A stretch of DNA of 59,503 nt from an uncultured Clostridia bacterium (GTDB lineage: Bacteria; Bacillota; Clostridia; Christensenellales; UBA1242), in NCBI GenBank assembly GCA_944381245.1, contig CALWKK010000003.1:1-59503 (forward strand), read 5' to 3'. The notes under the pieces were generated by a model, which saw only the letters and a program-made list of their open reading frames with translations, ran no database searches and was not told the DNA's origin. The translations under genes and the position numbers were made by a program. Position 1 is the first letter of the stretch; each line of letters begins with the position of its first letter. Below, piece after piece: positions 36,917 to 43,083 of the stretch.

Positions 36917-37159
36917 ATGGATAAAAATAATGAAGAAATGGTAAGGAACACATGTGATAATCAAAATAAACAAATGAAATATAGTAAAGAAACAACAATA
37001 GGCGAAGTGTTAAACGACAGTCCAGAAAACAAAGCTATTTTGGAAGGATTCGGCTTACATTGCTTTGGTTGTCCAATGAGTCAAATGGAAACATTGGAAG
37101 AAGCAAGTATTAATCATGATATAGATTTAGATTATATGCTAGAAAAATTAAACAAATAG
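36917..37159 (+). CDS. DUF1858-like small Cys protein
   Basis: TTIGEVL..GLHCFGCP.SQ.ETLEEA...H.ID. Confidence 0.85.
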   Translation: MDKNNEEMVRNTCDNQNKQMKYSKETTIGEVLNDSPENKAILEGFGLHCFGCPMSQMETLEEASINHDIDLDYMLEKLNK

Positions 37160-37192
37160 AAAGGATGATGTCAATGACATTATCCTTTTTTT
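37160..37192. terminator. Intrinsic terminator between the DUF1858 gene and tRNA-Ser
   Basis: AAAGGATGATGTCA/TGACATTATCCTTT plus T tract. Confidence 0.75.
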
Positions 37193-37207
37193 AGTATTAA
37201 TTAACTT

Positions 37208-37296
37208 TGGCGGAAAGGGCGGGATTTGAACCCGCGGTGGCTTTCAACCACACCGGTTTTCGAGACCAGCACATTCGACCTCTCTGACACCTTTCC
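37208..37296 (-). tRNA. tRNA-Ser(CGA)
   Basis: GGAAAGG/CCTTTCC acceptor, loop CT-CGA-AA, long variable arm, G73 and CCA. Confidence 0.95.
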
Positions 37297-37370
37297 TTAT
37301 ACAATTTATATTATATATTTTTTTATTATATTAATCAAGTATTTTAAATTCAATATTCTTTTATATCATA

Positions 37371-37399
37371 TTGCATTTTTTTCTGTTATATAATATAAT
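37371..37399 (+). promoter_or_regulatory. sigmaA promoter of the OLE-like RNA
   Basis: TTGCAT-17bp-TATAAT. Predicted start ~37405-37406 coincides with the 5' strand of the closing stem. Confidence 0.7.
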
Positions 37400-37405
37400 A
37401 TTAAT

Positions 37406-37968
37406 GGAGACGCAGTATTCTAGTCAAATAGATTTACCCGGAAGACGTTAAAGGCGTTAAATGGCATATCTGTGAAGTTTCTGGTGTTGGCTTTGGTTGC
37501 CCAAACTGGGGCTTATGCTGGAAGTTAAGAATTATGGGAGTGTTATAATGGCATATAATATCAACCCATTTTTCGTGGAGACCTAAACTTGGTGAATTTA
37601 TTGAAATTTACTATTTAGGTAGAACCTGCATTGCGGTAAAAAAAATTGCTGTGTGCAGTGTAGCCAGCCTTGAGTGAAACTGTTGGGATAAAACTAATAT
37701 TATATTTGAAATGGCCAACAAATTTAATATGTTAAAGTTTTTGAAATTCATTTTGCAAAATAGGATAAGGGTAAAAATCATTTGTTTGAGAAATTCTCTA
37801 GACTGTTCACTTTTGTAGTGTTTTGTTTCGGGGATTATAGTGTGGTCTTAGTGGCGATTCGGTGATGTCTGTTTAGTAAATGGAAACAGCTTGTTCGGCG
37901 ACGACAAGTTAAACAGCGGGAAATCCAACCGAACCTATGCTGCAAGGTTTACTCGAAGCATTGTCTCT
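37406..37968 (+). ncRNA. ole: OLE (ornate, large, extremophilic) RNA, divergent copy
   Basis: ORF-free and more GC-rich than flanks. Carries segments I recognise as OLE-conserved: CAGTATTCTAGTCA, TGAAGTTtCTGGTG, GTTAAGA, CGTGGAGAC, GTGCAGTGTAGCCaGCCTTGAGTG, TTTGCAAAA, CTAGACTG, GGGATTATAGTGTGGTCT. Nested long-range stems are visible and an oapA-like gene follows. Confidence 0.88.
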
Positions 37969-37975
37969 AATTAAA

Positions 37976-38016
37976 GAAGAAGAGTATTATCATTACATAT
38001 ATATCTCTTCTTTTTT
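37976..38016 (+). terminator. Intrinsic terminator between the OLE RNA and oapA
   Basis: AAGAAGAG...CTCTTCTT followed by a T tract. Confidence 0.6.
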
Positions 38017-38055
38017 ATTTGTGATAAATTAAAAAAAATGCTATAAATATATATT

Positions 38056-38724
38056 ATGAAAGATAATGAAAAAGAAAACGAAATTTATTCTTCTTTAGAA
38101 GAATCTAATCTTGAAAATTTAAATTTAAAAAAAAATGATTTAAAGAAAAATGATTTAAAAAATATAACAAACAAAGCAACAAAAAAGAAAACTCAAAAAT
38201 GGTGGATTTGGCCAATTAAAATTTTAGTTATAACTTTGTTTTTATCTCTTTCATTCAGTGTTTTAAGTGAGTTGTTATTAACTAATGTTGGAATCATAGT
38301 TTCAATATTTATTATTTTGTTTTTATTAATTATAGGTATAATTACTGATATGATAGGGGTTGCGACAACAGCTTGTCAAATTGAACCTTTTGCAGCAATG
38401 AGATCAAGAAAAGTCAAAGGAGCAAAGTTTGCAATGATTTTAGTTAAAAATGCAGAAAAAGTTTCAAGTATTTGTAATGATGTTGTAGGTGATATTTGTG
38501 GTATTTTATCTGGAGCAGCTGGTGCGTCTATAACTTTAAAATTTATTTCGGAAAATATGGGAGATTCTGTAAAAATTTTAATTGCTGGTGCAGTTAGTGC
38601 GCTTATTGCTGGCTTAACAATTTTTGGTAAAGCAATATGCAAAAAATATGCAATAGATAATTGTACTAAAATTGTTTTAGGTGTTGGAAAATGTTTCAGT
38701 ATATTTAACAAAAAGGATAAATAA
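38056..38724 (+). CDS. oapA: OLE-associated membrane protein OapA (DUF21/CNNM-like TM domain)
   Basis: About four TM helices, DMIGVA, PF.AM.SRKV.GA, and CNDVVGDICGILSGAAG (DxxxD plus GxxxG). Immediately downstream of the OLE-like RNA. Confidence 0.85.
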   Translation: MKDNEKENEIYSSLEESNLENLNLKKNDLKKNDLKNITNKATKKKTQKWWIWPIKILVITLFLSLSFSVLSELLLTNVGIIVSIFIILFLLIIGIITDMIGVATTACQIEPFAAMRSRKVKGAKFAMILVKNAEKVSSICNDVVGDICGILSGAAGASITLKFISENMGDSVKILIAGAVSALIAGLTIFGKAICKKYAIDNCTKIVLGVGKCFSIFNKKDK

Positions 38725-38749
38725 AAATTTATTTATTATCTTATTATAT

Positions 38750-38780
38750 AAAAATCTACTAAACAGAGTAGATTTTTTTT
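38750..38780 (+). terminator. Intrinsic terminator after oapA
   Basis: AAAAATCTACT/AGTAGATTTTT plus T tract. Confidence 0.75.
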
Positions 38781-38856
38781 ATAAAAAAATTTTTTAAGTA
38801 TAATTATAATTTATTTATGAATTTTAATAATTTTTTAATATTTTTATAAAAAATAG

Positions 38857-38962
38857 CATGAATAAATATGCAAAAAACACTTGCATAATTATAAATTATA
38901 TTGTATAATCATTAAAAATTAAAAAAAAATTATGAATTTTTATAAATTTATAATTATTCAAA
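38857..38962 (+). promoter_or_regulatory. argR promoter with overlapping ARG boxes
   Basis: TTGCAT(38881)-17bp-TATAAT(38904). ARG-box-like 18-mers CATGAATAAATATGCAAA, CTTGCATAATTATAAATT and TATGAATTTTTATAAATT. Confidence 0.7.
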
Positions 38963-39020
38963 ACAAAAAAAATACCCTAAAATAAAGGGAAATAGCGATA
39001 TTTAATAAGGAAGGAATAAA

Positions 39021-39479
39021 ATGGCTCGTTCTGTTAGACAATCTAAAATTTTAGAATTAATATCAACTAAAGAGATAGAAACTCAAGATGAATTGGTTGA
39101 ATGTTTGCGTAATTCAAATTTTGAAATAACGCAAGCAACTATATCTAGAGATATTAAAGAGTTGGGATTAATAAAAATTTTAAGCGCCGAAACAGGTAAA
39201 TATAAATATTCTATTGTAGATTCTGGAGAGCAAGCCGTTTCAAATAAATACATATCAATTTTTAAAGAAGCTGTAATATCAATTAAATCAGCTCAGAATT
39301 TAGTTGTTTTAAAAACAATAAAATCAATGGCCAATTCTATATGTTCTTTAATAGATAAATTAAATTTAGATTCAGTATTAGGCGCTGTTGCAGGTGATGA
39401 CACAATAATGATAATATTACCAACAAATGATCAAGCTAATAAAGTGGCCCATACAATTGAAGATTTAATAAGAAAATAA
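39021..39479 (+). CDS. argR: Arginine repressor
   Basis: RQ.KI..I..IETQ.EL, TQATISRDIKEL, VLKT, AGDDTI. Confidence 0.96.
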   Translation: MARSVRQSKILELISTKEIETQDELVECLRNSNFEITQATISRDIKELGLIKILSAETGKYKYSIVDSGEQAVSNKYISIFKEAVISIKSAQNLVVLKTIKSMANSICSLIDKLNLDSVLGAVAGDDTIMIILPTNDQANKVAHTIEDLIRK

Positions 39480-39503
39480 ACACGAATTATTTCGTGTTTT
39501 ATT
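39474..39503. terminator. Bidirectional terminator between argR and the recombinase
   Basis: AAACACGAA/TTCGTGTTT. Confidence 0.65.
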
Positions 39504-39540
39504 ATTGTATATTTCTTAAATATTATATTACCAATTATAG

Positions 39541-40572
39541 TTATCTTAATTTTACTTTGGTTGAAGCTTTTCTTCTAATATCTTCATCTATTGCAGCATA
39601 ATGTTTTTTTGTTGTGTTAACGTCTTTATGACCAAGAACATCTGCAACAATATAAATATCTTGTGTTTCTCTATATAACGAAGTGCCGTATGTGCTTCTC
39701 AATTTATGTGGCGATATTTTCTTTAATGGTGTTACAACTTGACTATATTTTTTTACTAAATTTTCAACAGCTCTTGGAGTTATTCTTTTCCTTTGTAATG
39801 ATAGAAAAAGGGCATTATCATCTTTTTCTTTAGTTTCTATATTTTCTCTTATCTCTAAATATTTTATTAATGCCTGCTTAACTTCATCAGAGAAATATAA
39901 AACAACTTCATTGCCTCCTTTTCTGGTTACTTTAAAACTATTATCTTCTAAATTAATATCCTTAATATTTAATCCAACACATTCACTTATTCTTATCCCA
40001 GTCCCAAGAAATAGTGTTAACATAGCAATATCTCTTTCCTTAGTTAAAATATTATATTTAATTTCTCGATTCGTTAATTTTTCTGGGAATTCGACTTCAT
40101 CTAATAAATTAGCAACTTCATCTGGCTCTAATCTTATAATTTCTTTTTCATGTATTTTAGGAGTTGTTATTTTACTTAATATATTTGCATTGATTAAATC
40201 TGAGTTATATAGATATTTAAATAAGCTCCTTATAGCTGATAATTTTCTTGCTTTACCTTTTTCTTTATTTATATGAATTTTACCGTCTTTTTCAAAAAAT
40301 GATAAATAACTTAAAAATCTTTCAATATCTTTAGATATTAAATTATTAATAATATTAAGATCAATATTTTTTTCAGAAATTTTATTGTTTTCTGACAAAT
40401 AATTAAAAAACAATTTTAAATCAAATAAATAATTTAATCTTGTTAAACTTGATGTGGTGTTTTCTATTGATATTATAAAATCATTTACGAAGGAGGGGAA
40501 ATGTTTTAATTCCTCTTTGATTTTTTTTTGATTTATTAAATCTCTTTCTGAGTGATAGCTCGATTTTCCCAT
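39541..40572 (-). CDS. XerC/XerD-family tyrosine recombinase
   Basis: Complete catalytic set GIRISE, RKGG, HKLR, LGH, HYA plus an N-terminal SAM-like domain. Core-gene context. Confidence 0.9.
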   Translation of the reverse strand: MGKSSYHSERDLINQKKIKEELKHFPSFVNDFIISIENTTSSLTRLNYLFDLKLFFNYLSENNKISEKNIDLNIINNLISKDIERFLSYLSFFEKDGKIHINKEKGKARKLSAIRSLFKYLYNSDLINANILSKITTPKIHEKEIIRLEPDEVANLLDEVEFPEKLTNREIKYNILTKERDIAMLTLFLGTGIRISECVGLNIKDINLEDNSFKVTRKGGNEVVLYFSDEVKQALIKYLEIRENIETKEKDDNALFLSLQRKRITPRAVENLVKKYSQVVTPLKKISPHKLRSTYGTSLYRETQDIYIVADVLGHKDVNTTKKHYAAIDEDIRRKASTKVKLR

Positions 40573-40772: not shown

Positions 40773-42065
40773 ATGATTTCATTAGATTTAATAAAAAATA
40801 ATCCAGAAAAGGTTGTTACAGCATTAAAAAAAAGAGCAATTGAATTTGATTTGTCTAAATTTTATGATTTAGATAAAAAAAGAAAAGAATTATTATATCA
40901 AGCAGATGAATTAAAAAAAATAAGGAATGAAGAAAGCTCAAAGGTCCCGCAGTTAAAAAAACAAGGAATAGACTGCTCAGAAATAATAAATAATATGAAA
41001 GAAATTGGTGATAAAATTTCACAACTAGATAAAGAAATTGAAATTATAGAAAAAAATATTTTTGACTTGATTTCTCCTTTACCAAATTTGGTTGATGAAG
41101 ATATTGTTGCAGGAGGGAAAGAAGCTAATACCGAAATAAGAAAGTTTGGTGAAAAACCGAATTTTAATTTTACTCCTTTATCACATATAGATTTATGTAA
41201 GATTAATAATTTTATTGATTATGAACGTGGTGCAAAAATATCAGGAAATGGAAGTTGGATTTACACGGGAGAAGGTGCAGAGTTGGAATGGGCTTTATTA
41301 AATTTTTTTATTTCAGAACATTTGGCAGATGGTTATAATTTTATATTACCTCCACATATGTTAGGGTATGAATGTGGATTTGTTGCTGGACAATTTCCAA
41401 AATTTGATGATGAAGTTTATTGGTTAGATGAAAAATCGCAAACTAGCAAATTCTTATTACCAACAGCAGAAACACCACTTGCGAATATTTATAGGAATGA
41501 AATCCTTTCTGAAGAAATTTTGCCAATAAAAATGTTTGCTTACACACCTTGCTATAGAAGAGAGGCAGGAAGTTATAGATCAGAAGAAAGGGGAATGATT
41601 AGAGGACATCAATTTAACAAAGTTGAAATGTTTCAAATAACAAAACCAGAAGATTCTGATAAGGCTTTTGAAGAATTAGTTAATAAAGCAGAAAATTTAG
41701 TCAAAAAATTAGGATTGCATTTTAGAACAACGAAACTTGCGGCACAAGATGTTAGCGCAACAATGGCAAGAACTTATGATGTTGAAATTTGGATTCCAAG
41801 TATGGAAATTTATAAAGAAATTAGCTCAGCTTCAAATGCAAGAGATTATCAAGCAAGAAGGGGAAACATAAAATATAGAGATAGTAAAACCAAAAAAGCT
41901 GAATATGTTAATACTTTAAATGCTTCAGGATTAGCAACAAGTAGGTTATTCCCAGCATTATTAGAACAATATCAAAATGAAGATGGAACAATAAATGTTC
42001 CTGAAGTTTTACAACCATTTATGAGAGGTAAAACTATAATAGGTAAAGGTAAAAATGTCAGATAA
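40773..42065 (+). CDS. serS: Serine--tRNA ligase
   Basis: N-terminal coiled coil, LPTAE, CYRREAG, RGHQFNKVE, EISSASN, LNASGLATSR. Confidence 0.97.
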   Translation: MISLDLIKNNPEKVVTALKKRAIEFDLSKFYDLDKKRKELLYQADELKKIRNEESSKVPQLKKQGIDCSEIINNMKEIGDKISQLDKEIEIIEKNIFDLISPLPNLVDEDIVAGGKEANTEIRKFGEKPNFNFTPLSHIDLCKINNFIDYERGAKISGNGSWIYTGEGAELEWALLNFFISEHLADGYNFILPPHMLGYECGFVAGQFPKFDDEVYWLDEKSQTSKFLLPTAETPLANIYRNEILSEEILPIKMFAYTPCYRREAGSYRSEERGMIRGHQFNKVEMFQITKPEDSDKAFEELVNKAENLVKKLGLHFRTTKLAAQDVSATMARTYDVEIWIPSMEIYKEISSASNARDYQARRGNIKYRDSKTKKAEYVNTLNASGLATSRLFPALLEQYQNEDGTINVPEVLQPFMRGKTIIGKGKNVR

Positions 42066-43083
42066 ACATAAAGTATTTGATAAAGAAATTATAAAAGATT
42101 TTGCTGAAGATGTTAATAATGATATGGTCCGAAGAGCATATTATTATGTTAATGAAAGCATAGACCAAGCAATTCAAAAAATTTCATTAAATAATATATA
42201 TATTAAAGAGCAAAATATTGAATTAATTCCAGTTGGAGATTTAATGACAAATACTTTTACCAACGTGTCAGAAATAGATTTATTATTAACAATTCGATCA
42301 GCGCAACTAGAATTAAATTCAATTAAAAAATTTGATAATAAGTTTTTATCTTACATTAATAAATTTAAAAGAGCATGGAAAATAAATAAAAATAATAAAA
42401 AAAAGAATAAATTAAAAAATAAATTATTTAATTTCAAAAAAAACAAAAATATTATAACAAAGCAAACTTTATATCAAAAAAAAAAAAAACTTTATAATAT
42501 TTTTGATATTAAAAATAATTTATTTGAAGAAATGACCAATTATTTTACAAATCTTACAATACTTTACAACGAAGATAATAAAATTTCAATTCTATCAAAA
42601 GATGAAATAGGGTATAAGGTCAATATTTATCCTGTTTTTAAACATGAAAATTATTTAAGAATATTTAATAAAAATGATTACAAATATAAAGAAATAAAGA
42701 TTAAAGAAGCCCTTCAAAATATAAAAAATAAAGCAAATGAAATTTATAATATTAATAAATTAATAATTGATGATGAATTTATTTTCAATAAAATTATAAA
42801 GATTTTTAAAAATTTATATTTTAATATAAAACATGAAAATAATTTTATATTTGTTGAAAGTTTAATATATTCTTGCCCGACATCATTATTTAAAATTGAA
42901 AAAAATGATGAAAATAATTACATTTATAATATTTTTATTAAAGTATTAAATTATATAAATTCAATTAATTTGTCTAAAATAAAATCAATATATAATGATG
43001 AGAAGACAATATATCAACAAGATGAAATTTCATTATACAATATCAACAGTTTTATAAAACTCTTAAGTGAAATGATTTTATAA
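42055..43083 (+). CDS. Hypothetical protein, degenerate SMODS/CD-NTase-like nucleotidyltransferase fold
   Basis: VGDLMTNTFTNVSEIDLLL, VNIYPVF, FNKIIKIFKNL and FVESLIYSCPTSLF occur in the order of CD-NTase motifs. Overlaps the serS stop by 11 nt. Confidence 0.55.
   Translation: MSDKHKVFDKEIIKDFAEDVNNDMVRRAYYYVNESIDQAIQKISLNNIYIKEQNIELIPVGDLMTNTFTNVSEIDLLLTIRSAQLELNSIKKFDNKFLSYINKFKRAWKINKNNKKKNKLKNKLFNFKKNKNIITKQTLYQKKKKLYNIFDIKNNLFEEMTNYFTNLTILYNEDNKISILSKDEIGYKVNIYPVFKHENYLRIFNKNDYKYKEIKIKEALQNIKNKANEIYNINKLIIDDEFIFNKIIKIFKNLYFNIKHENNFIFVESLIYSCPTSLFKIEKNDENNYIYNIFIKVLNYINSINLSKIKSIYNDEKTIYQQDEISLYNINSFIKLLSEMIL

What the first reader, a model, noticed from the sequence alone, without database searches (positions are those of the whole stretch)
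37371..38780. Divergent OLE RNA plus OapA arranged as apparently stand-alone transcription units
Seen: about 563 ORF-free nt with nested pairings. GGAGAC(37406) pairs with GTCTCT(37963). CAGT-att-CTAG(37412) pairs with CTAGACTG(37798). TCAAATAGA(37424) pairs with TTTGTTTGA(37781). TTTACCC(37433) pairs with GGGTAAA(37769). Local hairpins include CTGCATTGCGGTAA/TTGCTGTGTGCAG and CTTGT/ACAAG. A four-TM protein with NDVVGDICGILSG follows. Known: OLE RNAs (~600 nt, Firmicutes) form a membrane-bound RNP with OapA, their biochemical function is unresolved, and in Halalkalibacterium (Bacillus) halodurans ole-oapA lies inside a long operon. Inference: this copy has its own sigmaA promoter (TTGCAT-17-TATAAT), a terminator hairpin right after its 3' end and a separate promoter for oapA. 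The RNA would therefore be made as a discrete primary transcript, uncoupled from its protein partner.
Basis: partly seen in the sequence, partly recalled or inferred. Interest (0 to 1): 0.8.

Follow-up and report, generated by a model that had tools for sequence, protein, structure and literature searches.

The report
Slightly reduced OLE RNA beside oapA
This is a real, slightly pared-down copy of the known OLE RNA next to the gene for its membrane partner OapA, in a bacterium with a very small genome; each gene seems to have its own promoter and terminator, which is a modest variation on a known system.

Summary
Rfam's OLE model matches window 37391-37983 over its full length (345.4 bits, E 7.5e-98).

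The ORF at 38056-38724 is OapA. It carries the DxxxD motif, lies directly after ole, and has orthologues in 26 of 26 OLE-positive relatives.

The host genome is 0.94 Mb with 26% GC. Its OLE lacks the P13 hairpin that binds OapB. No L7Ae/OapC gene was found. This fits the reduced "variant 1" already published (PMC11332333).

The proposed architecture is supported by comparison only:
- The promoter at P1 is kept in 12 of 13 genus genomes.
- A hairpin plus U-tract follows ole in 10 of 13.
- An extended -10 promoter sits 8-9 nt before the oapA ATG, with no Shine-Dalgarno, in 10 of 13.
- In two relatives oapA is inverted relative to ole.

No transcript ends were mapped.

The arrangement is not special. 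An own ole promoter is known in H. halodurans. Promoter-like sites lie upstream of 45 of 52 OLE loci examined, and terminator-like hairpins follow ole in 9 of 40 loci outside the genus. Verdict: an ordinary new member of a known kind, low interest.

The parts
37158..37190 (+). Terminator-like hairpin ending the upstream DUF1858 gene (36917-37159). It marks the left boundary, so no + strand transcript is expected to run into ole.
   Evidence: 15-pair stem followed by a T-run; Pfam DUF1858 hit.
37208..37296 (-). tRNA-Ser (anticodon CGA) on the opposite strand, between the upstream gene and ole.
   Evidence: ARAGORN; Rfam tRNA hit, 50.2 bits.
37371..37399 (+). Putative sigma-A promoter of ole: TTGCAT (37371-76), 17-nt spacer, TATAAT (37394-99). 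The predicted start is about 37405-37407, the first base of P1.
   Evidence: Sequence. The same arrangement, with the -10 ending 13-15 nt before the conserved CAGTAT, is found in 12 of 13 genus, 2 of 3 family and 3 of 8 order loci. Not tested experimentally.
37406..37968 (+). OLE RNA core from the 5' strand of P1 to the 3' strand of P1 (563 nt). The Rfam match spans 37391-37983. The P13 hairpin is missing: 3 nt stand where the model has 21.
37973..38020 (+). Intrinsic-terminator-like hairpin after ole. Arms are 37973-84 and 38005-16, the loop is 20 nt, and a U-run follows with UUUAUUU.
   Evidence: Fold at -11.7 kcal/mol, z -3.8. Equivalent hairpins with different upper-stem sequences occur in 9 other genus genomes. 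The consensus scanner missed it because of the long loop.
38019..38047 (+). Putative oapA promoter: TTGTGA (38019-24), 17-nt spacer, extended -10 TGcTATAAA (38039-47) ending 8 nt before the ATG. There is no Shine-Dalgarno motif.
   Evidence: Conserved as TTGT(G/T)A-17-TGnTATTAT in 10 of 13 genus genomes, including G009 where it travels with the inverted gene.
38056..38724 (+). oapA (222 aa): a membrane protein with DxxxD (D142...D146) and a further invariant D98. It is a weak CNNM-like match. About 45 N-terminal residues form a charged low-complexity extension.
38750..38780 (+). Terminator-like hairpin plus U-run after oapA.
   Evidence: Fold at -10.9 kcal/mol, z -3.0.
39021..39479 (+). argR, a context gene that follows oapA in this genus. 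argR also lies a few genes downstream of ole-oapA in two larger relatives (G026, G028).
   Evidence: Pfam and NCBIfam hits; locus maps.

Best explanation
The region encodes a functional, mildly reduced OLE RNA and its membrane partner OapA, in an uncultured Clostridia lineage with a genome of about 0.9 Mb.

Proposed expression (inferred from sequence and conservation):
- ole is transcribed from a sigma-A promoter (TTGCAT-17-TATAAT) that places the start at the first base of P1, about 37406.
- Transcription stops at the hairpin plus U-tract at 37973-38020. This gives a primary transcript of about 610 nt that needs little or no processing.
- oapA is transcribed separately from an extended -10 promoter ending 8 nt before its ATG, probably as a leaderless or nearly leaderless mRNA.
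- oapA transcription ends at its own hairpin at 38750-38780.

Separate units would let the cell make a very abundant stable RNA without over-producing a membrane protein.

Proposed function (by analogy with H. halodurans and C. acetobutylicum, not tested here): the RNA dimerises and docks on OapA dimers at the membrane as a stress and Mg2+-related ribonucleoprotein.

In this lineage the particle appears simplified. The P13/OapB site is gone and no L7Ae-type OapC gene was found.
For: Shown by tools:
- Full-length OLE match at 345.4 bits, a single copy in the assembly.
- P1, P2 and the 37433/37769 helix are kept with covariation in 51 sequences.
- OLE is present in 13 of 13 other genus genomes.
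- OapA orthologues carry invariant D98, D142, G145 and D146 in 34 sequences. OapA is found in 26 of 26 OLE-positive relatives.
- The window ORF is 42% identical (E 2e-24) to the gene just downstream of a 513-bit OLE in a named Pseudogracilibacillus genome.
- 23 of 34 OapA orthologues give weak CNNM hits, as described in PMC11332333 section 9.
- The P13 region is 7 nt in all 13 genus OLEs, against a median of 25 nt in the order and phylum samples.
- PF01248 (L7Ae) was found in 0 of 14 genus genomes but in 12 of 16 genomes from other families of the order.

Comparative support for the architecture:
- The ole promoter is kept in 12 of 13 genus genomes.
- A terminator hairpin is kept in 10 of 13. 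All 8 that I folded gave -9.8 to -13.9 kcal/mol and z -3.8 to -4.7, with upper-stem sequences that differ between genomes.
- The oapA promoter is kept in 10 of 13, with no SD-like motif in any of the 13.
- oapA is inverted relative to ole in G009, together with its promoter, and in G015.
- Genes upstream of ole differ among genus members, while ole-oapA-argR is kept.

Support for a leaderless oapA mRNA:
- Across the genome, TGnTAnnnT ends exactly 6 nt before the ATG in 21 crude genes, 7 nt in 7 and 8 nt in 4. The other distances from 0 to 99 have 0-8 each.

Weak evidence:
- Three contigs of a gut metatranscriptome library match 37501-37644, 37706-37859 and 37830-37945 with 3, 1 and 0 differences. 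The tool warns that DNA can be present in such libraries.
Against: - No transcript start or end was observed. Everything about promoters and terminators is sequence inference in 26% GC DNA, where promoter-like hexamers are as frequent as chance (22 found, 19.8 expected).
- The window's terminator has an unusually long 20-nt loop and only 3 G-C pairs, so it may be leaky.
- Three genus genomes (G006, G012, G013) have a hairpin without a U-tract and lack the oapA promoter motif. The arrangement is therefore not universal even within the genus.
- The window's -10 (TATAAA) lies 8 nt before the ATG. That is in the tail of the genome-wide peak at 6 nt, not at the peak.
- 46% of crude genes lack my SD core, so a missing SD is not diagnostic.
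- An OapB homologue is retained, so 'simplified particle' rests on the lost P13 site alone for that partner.
- The assembly is 90% complete, so the absence of OapC is 'not found' and not proven.
- RNAalifold on a MAFFT alignment of the terminators returned no consensus structure.
Confidence: 0.72

Rival explanations
1. ole and oapA are still one operon. The promoter at 37371-99 drives both genes. The hairpin after ole is a leaky terminator, or a 3'-end protecting or processing stem. OapA is translated from read-through or processed transcripts. The 'oapA promoter' is conserved AT-rich spacer of recently diverged genomes.
For: - In most OLE loci outside the genus, oapA starts 8-50 nt after ole with an SD and no hairpin (31 of 40), so co-transcription is the common or ancestral state.
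- In H. halodurans at least some OLE is co-transcribed with neighbouring genes (PMC3413148).
- The window hairpin has a 20-nt loop and a weak stem.
- G006, G012 and G013 have no U-tract.
- Promoter-like matches are at chance level in this DNA.
Against: - The -35, 17-nt spacer, TGn and -10 keep their spacing in 10 of 13 genomes, while the surrounding spacer varies from about 57 to 115 nt.
- There is no SD before oapA, which a read-through mRNA would be expected to need, whereas 54% of crude genes have one.
- In G009 the gene and this promoter are inverted together and converge on a shared hairpin. G015 is also inverted.
Confidence: 0.2
2. The locus is a decaying relic. In a shrinking genome the OLE particle is being lost, and this low-scoring RNA without P13 and without OapC is no longer functional.
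For: - The window's score (345 bits) is among the lowest full-length scores of 113 OLE-positive genomes in the phylum sample.
- P13 is lost and no L7Ae gene was found.
- Within the same family, OLE was not found in 7 of 24 genomes and is a 218-nt fragment in G015.
- Five relatives have oapA with no detectable OLE.
Against: - OLE is kept in 13 of 13 other genus genomes (full length in 12; G010 is a partial hit), all with intact oapA ORFs where the contig allows.
- About 160 columns invariant across the 51 aligned OLE RNAs, this copy included.
- Helices are maintained by compensatory changes.
- The invariant OapA residues are intact.
- Near-identical OLE pieces are present in an RNA library (weak).
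Confidence: 0.05

Closest known systems
OLE RNA, full-length type (Rfam RF01071; studied in Halalkalibacterium halodurans and Clostridium acetobutylicum)
   Same: - The model is matched end to end.
- P1, P2 and the internal conserved blocks are retained.
- The gene lies immediately upstream of oapA.
- A proximal sigma-A promoter is present, as shown experimentally for H. halodurans (PMC3413148).
   Different: - The P13 hairpin is absent: 7 nt against about 25.
- The P3 loop is 5 nt shorter, and the core is 563 nt against a median of 590.
- The RNA has 36% GC.
- It is not embedded in the xseA-xseB-ispA...dxs gene context seen in larger relatives of the order.
- A terminator-like hairpin separates it from oapA.
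OLE 'variant 1' of Fernando and Breaker 2024 (PMC11332333, section 5 read)
   Same: - The host is an uncultured gut-type organism with a reduced genome.
- The OapB-binding P13 element is missing.
- No OapC was found.
   Different: - The paper ties variant 1 mostly to TANB77. The nearest named records here are Clostridia MAGs labelled Christensenella sp. UBA1242 and UBA5893.
- An OapB homologue is present here, whereas the paper says such organisms largely lack OapB.
- I did not map shortening of P7-P9 by stem name.
- The paper's supplementary alignments could not be seen, so whether this lineage was counted there is unknown.
OapA (OLE-associated protein A) and the CNNM/MpfA/CorB transmembrane domain
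   Same: - It lies directly after ole.
- It carries the DxxxD motif.
- Hydropathy shows three runs of hydrophobic windows: a long one (windows starting at residues 49-91) wide enough for two helices, one isolated window starting at residue 143 (the DxxxD stretch), and one with windows starting at 169-177.
- It gives a sub-threshold PF01595 match, as described in PMC11332333 section 9.
- No MpfA-type CNNM protein was found in the host genome, in line with the reported anticorrelation.
   Different: - It has about 45 extra N-terminal residues rich in K, N, E and D, shared within the genus.
- No sequence match to any PDB chain was found.

Membership tests
OLE RNA (RF01071) | Covariance-model score above the curated gathering threshold over the full model | tested here: met
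   345.4 bits against a threshold of 50, model positions 1-616 of 616, E 7.5e-98.
OLE RNA (RF01071) | Long-range helices P1 and P2 and the inner helices are maintained, with covariation among homologues | tested here: met
   P1 96.4% paired with 5 of 6 covarying pairs; P2 100%; helix 37433/37769 88.2% with 7 of 7 covarying pairs. One helix (37424/37781) is only 52.1% paired.
OLE RNA (RF01071) | Genomic association with oapA | tested here: met
   oapA starts 72 nt after the Rfam match. OapA was found in 26 of 26 OLE-positive relatives.
OLE RNA, full-length type | P12.2/P13 hairpin with a GNRA loop that binds OapB | tested here: not met
   3 nt stand where the model has 21. The P13 region is 7 nt against a median of 25.
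OLE RNA, full-length type | K-turn near P5 that binds OapC | not tested
   The invariant TGAA and GCTGG blocks around P5 are present in A1, but I did not model the k-turn. No L7Ae gene was found in the genome.
OLE variant 1 (PMC11332333) | Loss of the OapB site at P13; shorter P7-P9; reduced-genome host largely lacking OapB and OapC | tested here: inconclusive
   P13 loss is met and OapC was not found. One hairpin is about 8 nt shorter than the phylum median, but the stems were not matched to the P7-P9 names. An OapB homologue is present.
OapA | DxxxD motif | tested here: met
   D142-V-V-G-D146 is invariant in 34 aligned orthologues. The motif is named as distinctive of OapA in PMC11332333 section 9.
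OapA | Four transmembrane helices and a CNNM-like fold | tested here: inconclusive
   Hydropathy shows a long hydrophobic run (windows starting at 49-91, room for two helices), a weak single window starting at 143, and a run starting at 169-177. The PF01595 hit has E 0.0043, below the cut-off, and 23 of 34 orthologues hit it.
OapA | Binds OLE RNA and localises it to the membrane | not testable with these tools
   Needs biochemistry.

The most novel reading that the evidence does not exclude
In this Clostridia lineage of about 0.9 Mb the OLE particle has been stripped to a minimal natural form. The RNA lacks the OapB-binding P13 hairpin, there is no L7Ae/OapC protein, and OapA is the only dedicated partner. 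The two genes have become fully independent units: ole is a promoter-to-terminator primary transcript, and oapA is a leaderless mRNA that can even be inverted in relatives. If so, this lineage would give the smallest natural OLE RNP for structural and reconstitution work. It would also show that co-transcription of ole and oapA is dispensable.
Probability: 0.4. Interest if true: 0.4.

Novelty: new member of a known kind. Interest (0 to 1): 0.22.

Why it matters
[quoted passage not shown] This copy adds no new class.

It does document three things:
- A reduced OLE (no P13, no OapC found) is stably kept in a genus with genomes of about 0.9 Mb.
- Proximal promoters are a general feature of OLE loci.
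- A terminator between ole and oapA recurs in several lineages.

A lineage in which the RNA is defined by a promoter and a terminator, and in which oapA can be inverted, argues that the RNA and protein need not be made from one transcript. Such minimal versions could be convenient for reconstitution. These are incremental points for specialists.

Tried and rejected
- Transcript evidence. The one run search gave two runs with small shares, both kept only as contigs. Laying them showed many OLE pieces from other organisms and three near-identical pieces inside OLE. Nothing near-identical lay on 37000-37434 or 37957-39600.
- RNAalifold on a MAFFT alignment of ten terminator regions predicted no pairs. 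The short hairpins were aligned out of register, so I relied on single-sequence folds.
No fold comparison with CorB was possible.
- PDB sequence searches found no relative, neither with OapA alone (only a chance hit at E 0.45) nor with the A3 profile.
- NCBIfam has no OapA model. It returned only a chance-level hit. The Pfam DUF3671 hit (23.7 bits, below the cut-off of 34) falls on the low-complexity N-terminus, and I take it as spurious.
- My first anchor patterns failed on most phylum loci, and I replaced them with Rfam coordinates. In one search the rule 'first start with an SD' picked internal starts for genus genes. Genus starts were therefore taken from the conserved N-termini instead.
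- Literature. Puerta-Fernandez 2006 and Block 2011 are not held, so their statements on operon structure are known only through later papers.
- I found no statement about an intrinsic terminator between ole and oapA. The search 'OLE RNA' plus 'terminator' gave 9 papers. I opened only the top hit, which concerns a ykoY riboswitch terminator; the other eight were not read for this. The word 'terminator' occurs 0 times in PMC3413148, PMC11332333, PMC12265935, PMC9723947 and PMC12054373. Supplements are closed and may hold relevant alignments.
- The scan's notes had nothing for this genome.
- A recalled ARG-box consensus gave 3 matches in the window against 3.5 expected. Only the position of the best one, upstream of argR, is suggestive.
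Full report
**What is there**

Rfam's OLE model (RF01071) matches window 37391-37983 on the + strand. The score is 345.4 bits against a gathering score of 50, E 7.5e-98, and all 616 model positions are covered. It is the only copy in the host assembly, which has 941,124 bases in 87 contigs and is 90% complete. The assembly has 26.3% GC.

No ORF of 60 aa or more lies on the + strand inside the RNA. The next + strand ORF, 38056-38724 (222 aa), contains ICNDVVGDICGILSG.

I aligned 51 OLE RNAs: the window, 12 genus relatives, 3 family relatives, 8 order relatives and 27 phylum relatives (A1).

| Helix | Cells paired | Covariation |
|---|---|---|
| P1, 37406-11 with 37963-68 | 96.4% | 5 of 6 pairs change on both sides |
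| P2, first half | 100% | nearly invariant |
| P2, second half | 100% | invariant |
| 37433-39 with 37769-75 | 88.2% | 7 of 7 pairs change on both sides |
| 37424-32 with 37781-89 | 52.1% | weak |

Overall 82.3% of cells pair, against 37.5-47.1% when the partners are slid by 1-3 columns, and 0 of 500 shuffles reach the observed value. The MFE fold of 37406-37968 recovers the same outer helices. CAGT starts at 37413, and one helix is not general across the family.

**OapA**

ORFs downstream of OLE in the relatives share the motif. In a 34-sequence alignment, D98, A103, D142, G145, D146, G153, T188, K192 and K196 are invariant (A3).

DxxxD is named as the distinctive OapA feature, and OapA as the next-best match to the CNNM model, in PMC11332333 section 9. 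Here the window protein hits PF01595 at E 0.0043, below the cut-off, and 23 of 34 orthologues hit it.

A profile of A3 finds OapA in 31 of 41 relatives, including all 26 that have OLE. The window protein is 42% identical (E 2e-24) to the gene just after a 513-bit OLE in a named Pseudogracilibacillus genome.

Hydropathy shows a long hydrophobic run (windows starting at residues 49-91, room for two helices), a weak single window starting at 143 around DxxxD, and a run starting at 169-177. This is compatible with four helices but is not a test.

**Host and type of OLE**

All 13 other genomes of the genus are about 0.5-0.9 Mb and have OLE. In the family, 17 of 24 have it. The nearest named records are Clostridia MAGs labelled Christensenella sp. 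UBA1242 and UBA5893, at 50-58% OapA identity.

Compared with the order and phylum samples, the genus OLEs differ as follows:

| Feature | Genus OLEs | Order and phylum samples |
|---|---|---|
| P13 region | 7 nt in all 13 | median 25 nt |
| P3 loop | 5 nt shorter | - |
| P1-to-P1 core | window 563 nt | phylum median 590 nt |

P13 is the OapB-binding hairpin (PMC7936274, passages).

No L7Ae-family (OapC/YbxF) gene was found in the host or in any of the 13 genus relatives. One of 24 family genomes and 12 of 16 genomes from other families of the order have one.

An OapB homologue is present between map and infA. Its best PDB match is 7k9b, 'OLE-associated protein B', at E 1.9e-5. It occurs in 12 of 13 genus relatives, and also in relatives without OLE.

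No MpfA-type CNNM protein was found in the host.

This matches the published 'variant 1' picture of reduced OLE RNAs in uncultured gut organisms with small genomes (PMC11332333 section 5). The exception is that OapB is retained here.

**Transcription architecture: the ole promoter**

TTGCAT-17-TATAAT ends 13 nt before the conserved CAGTAT, which places a start at the first base of P1. The same arrangement occurs in 12 of 13 genus loci, 2 of 3 family loci, 3 of 8 order loci and 0 of 29 phylum loci.

With a looser window (any TTGnnn-16/18-TAnnnT site with at least 9 of 12 matches within 120 nt upstream), the counts are 13 of 13, 3 of 3, 6 of 8 and 23 of 28. In control windows 300-412 nt upstream they are 1 of 13, 0 of 3, 0 of 8 and 3 of 26.

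A proximal promoter is therefore a general property of OLE loci. This agrees with the experimentally verified promoter in H. halodurans (PMC3413148; PMC9723947).

**Transcription architecture: the terminator after ole**

The window hairpin (37973-38016 plus U-run) folds at -11.7 kcal/mol, z -3.8. Seven relatives that I folded give -9.8 to -13.9 kcal/mol with z -3.9 to -4.7. Ten of 13 genus loci have a hairpin plus U-tract, with different upper-stem sequences. G006, G012 and G013 have a hairpin without a U-tract.

Outside the genus, 9 of 40 loci have a hairpin of -8 kcal/mol or better followed by a T-rich tail between ole and oapA. The other 31 mostly have gaps of 8-50 nt with an SD. The phylum loci are the 30 best-scoring hits, not a random draw.

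**Transcription architecture: the oapA promoter**

TTGTGA-17-TGcTATAAA ends 8 nt before the ATG. Nine same-strand genus loci have TTGT(G/T)A-17-TGnTATTAT 8-9 nt before the ATG, and G009 has it on its inverted gene. That makes 10 of 13. None of the 13 has an SD-like motif in -18 to -4.

Across the genome, 54% of 692 crude genes have an SD core there, against 4% in a control window. An extended -10 ends exactly 6 nt before the ATG in 21 genes, 7 nt in 7 and 8 nt in 4. The other distances have 0-8 each. This is the signature of leaderless mRNAs in this organism.

A hairpin plus U-run follows oapA.

**Inversions in relatives**

In G009 (same genus) and G015 (same family) oapA lies on the strand opposite to ole. 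In G009 the two genes converge on one hairpin. This is the strongest comparative argument that the two genes do not need to share a transcript.

**What is not shown**

No transcript ends were seen. The only runs available were contigs. Three near-identical pieces inside OLE occur in a gut metatranscriptome library, which is weak support for expression. Promoter-like hexamers are at chance frequency in this DNA, so the case rests on conserved position and spacing.

**Comparison with what is known, and novelty**

The RNA and protein families, the reduced variant, the own promoter and the link to small-genome gut organisms are all in print. I found no printed statement on an intrinsic terminator between ole and oapA (searches and word counts). 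Two early papers and all supplements could not be read.

Notes from this scan on other genomes describe OLE genes with their own promoter and terminator, and one separated from oapA. I did not check those, but my own sample shows the same recurrence.

I rate this a new member of a known kind. Small points of interest are the probable leaderless oapA, the inversions in relatives, and the retention of OapB without its known site.

**Function**

By analogy only, OLE forms a dimer and binds OapA dimers at the membrane (PMC12286853 passages; PMC12265935 abstract). The particle aids growth under cold, alcohol, Mg2+ and carbon-source stress in H. halodurans (abstract of PMC10898510). None of this was tested here.

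Noticed in passing
whole genome G000 (window = C3): Leaderless-mRNA signature. An extended -10 (TGnTAnnnT) ends exactly 6 nt before the first ATG of 21 crude genes, 7 nt in 7 and 8 nt in 4. The other distances from 0 to 99 have 0-8 each. 36 of the 37 genes with such a site 5-10 nt upstream have no SD core.
   Followed up: partly
L012 (G009) 1501-2854; L083 (G015) 1554-2312: In two relatives oapA lies on the strand opposite to ole. In G009 the two genes converge on one palindromic hairpin, and oapA keeps its own promoter motif. In G015 the OLE match is only a 218-nt fragment (model 279-595, 106.9 bits).
   Followed up: partly
L078-L082 (G017, G022, G034, G036, G040): Five relatives have a clear OapA gene (E 4.6e-42 to 8.7e-60) but no OLE. 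None was detected genome-wide with the stricter filters, and none within about 1.7-2 kb of oapA at a permissive Rfam threshold. These may be orphan oapA genes, or the OLE may be too divergent to detect.
   Followed up: partly
G000:C9 (L035 1724-2002, - strand): A 92-aa KOW-type OapB/YbzG homologue lies between map and infA (best PDB match 7k9b, E 1.9e-5). It is retained although the OLE here lacks the P13 site that OapB binds. It is also present in relatives without OLE.
   Followed up: partly
window 38857-38874: CATGAATAAATATGCAAA lies about 150 nt upstream of argR and differs at 2 positions from an ARG-box consensus that I recalled from memory. Matches in the window as a whole are at chance level, 3 against 3.5 expected. 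Possible ArgR autoregulation.
   Followed up: partly
window 38056-38200: OapA in this genus has an extra N-terminal stretch of about 45 residues rich in K, N, E and D. It is absent from the 181-206-aa OapA proteins of larger relatives. It causes a spurious sub-threshold DUF3671 hit.
   Followed up: no
window 42055-43083: A 342-aa Lys/Asn-rich ORF between serS and a tRNA-Leu has no Pfam or NCBIfam match.
   Followed up: no
window 39478-39499: A perfect 9-bp palindromic hairpin with T-runs on both strands lies between the convergent argR and a XerD-like recombinase gene (39541-40572, - strand). It looks like a bidirectional terminator.
   Followed up: no
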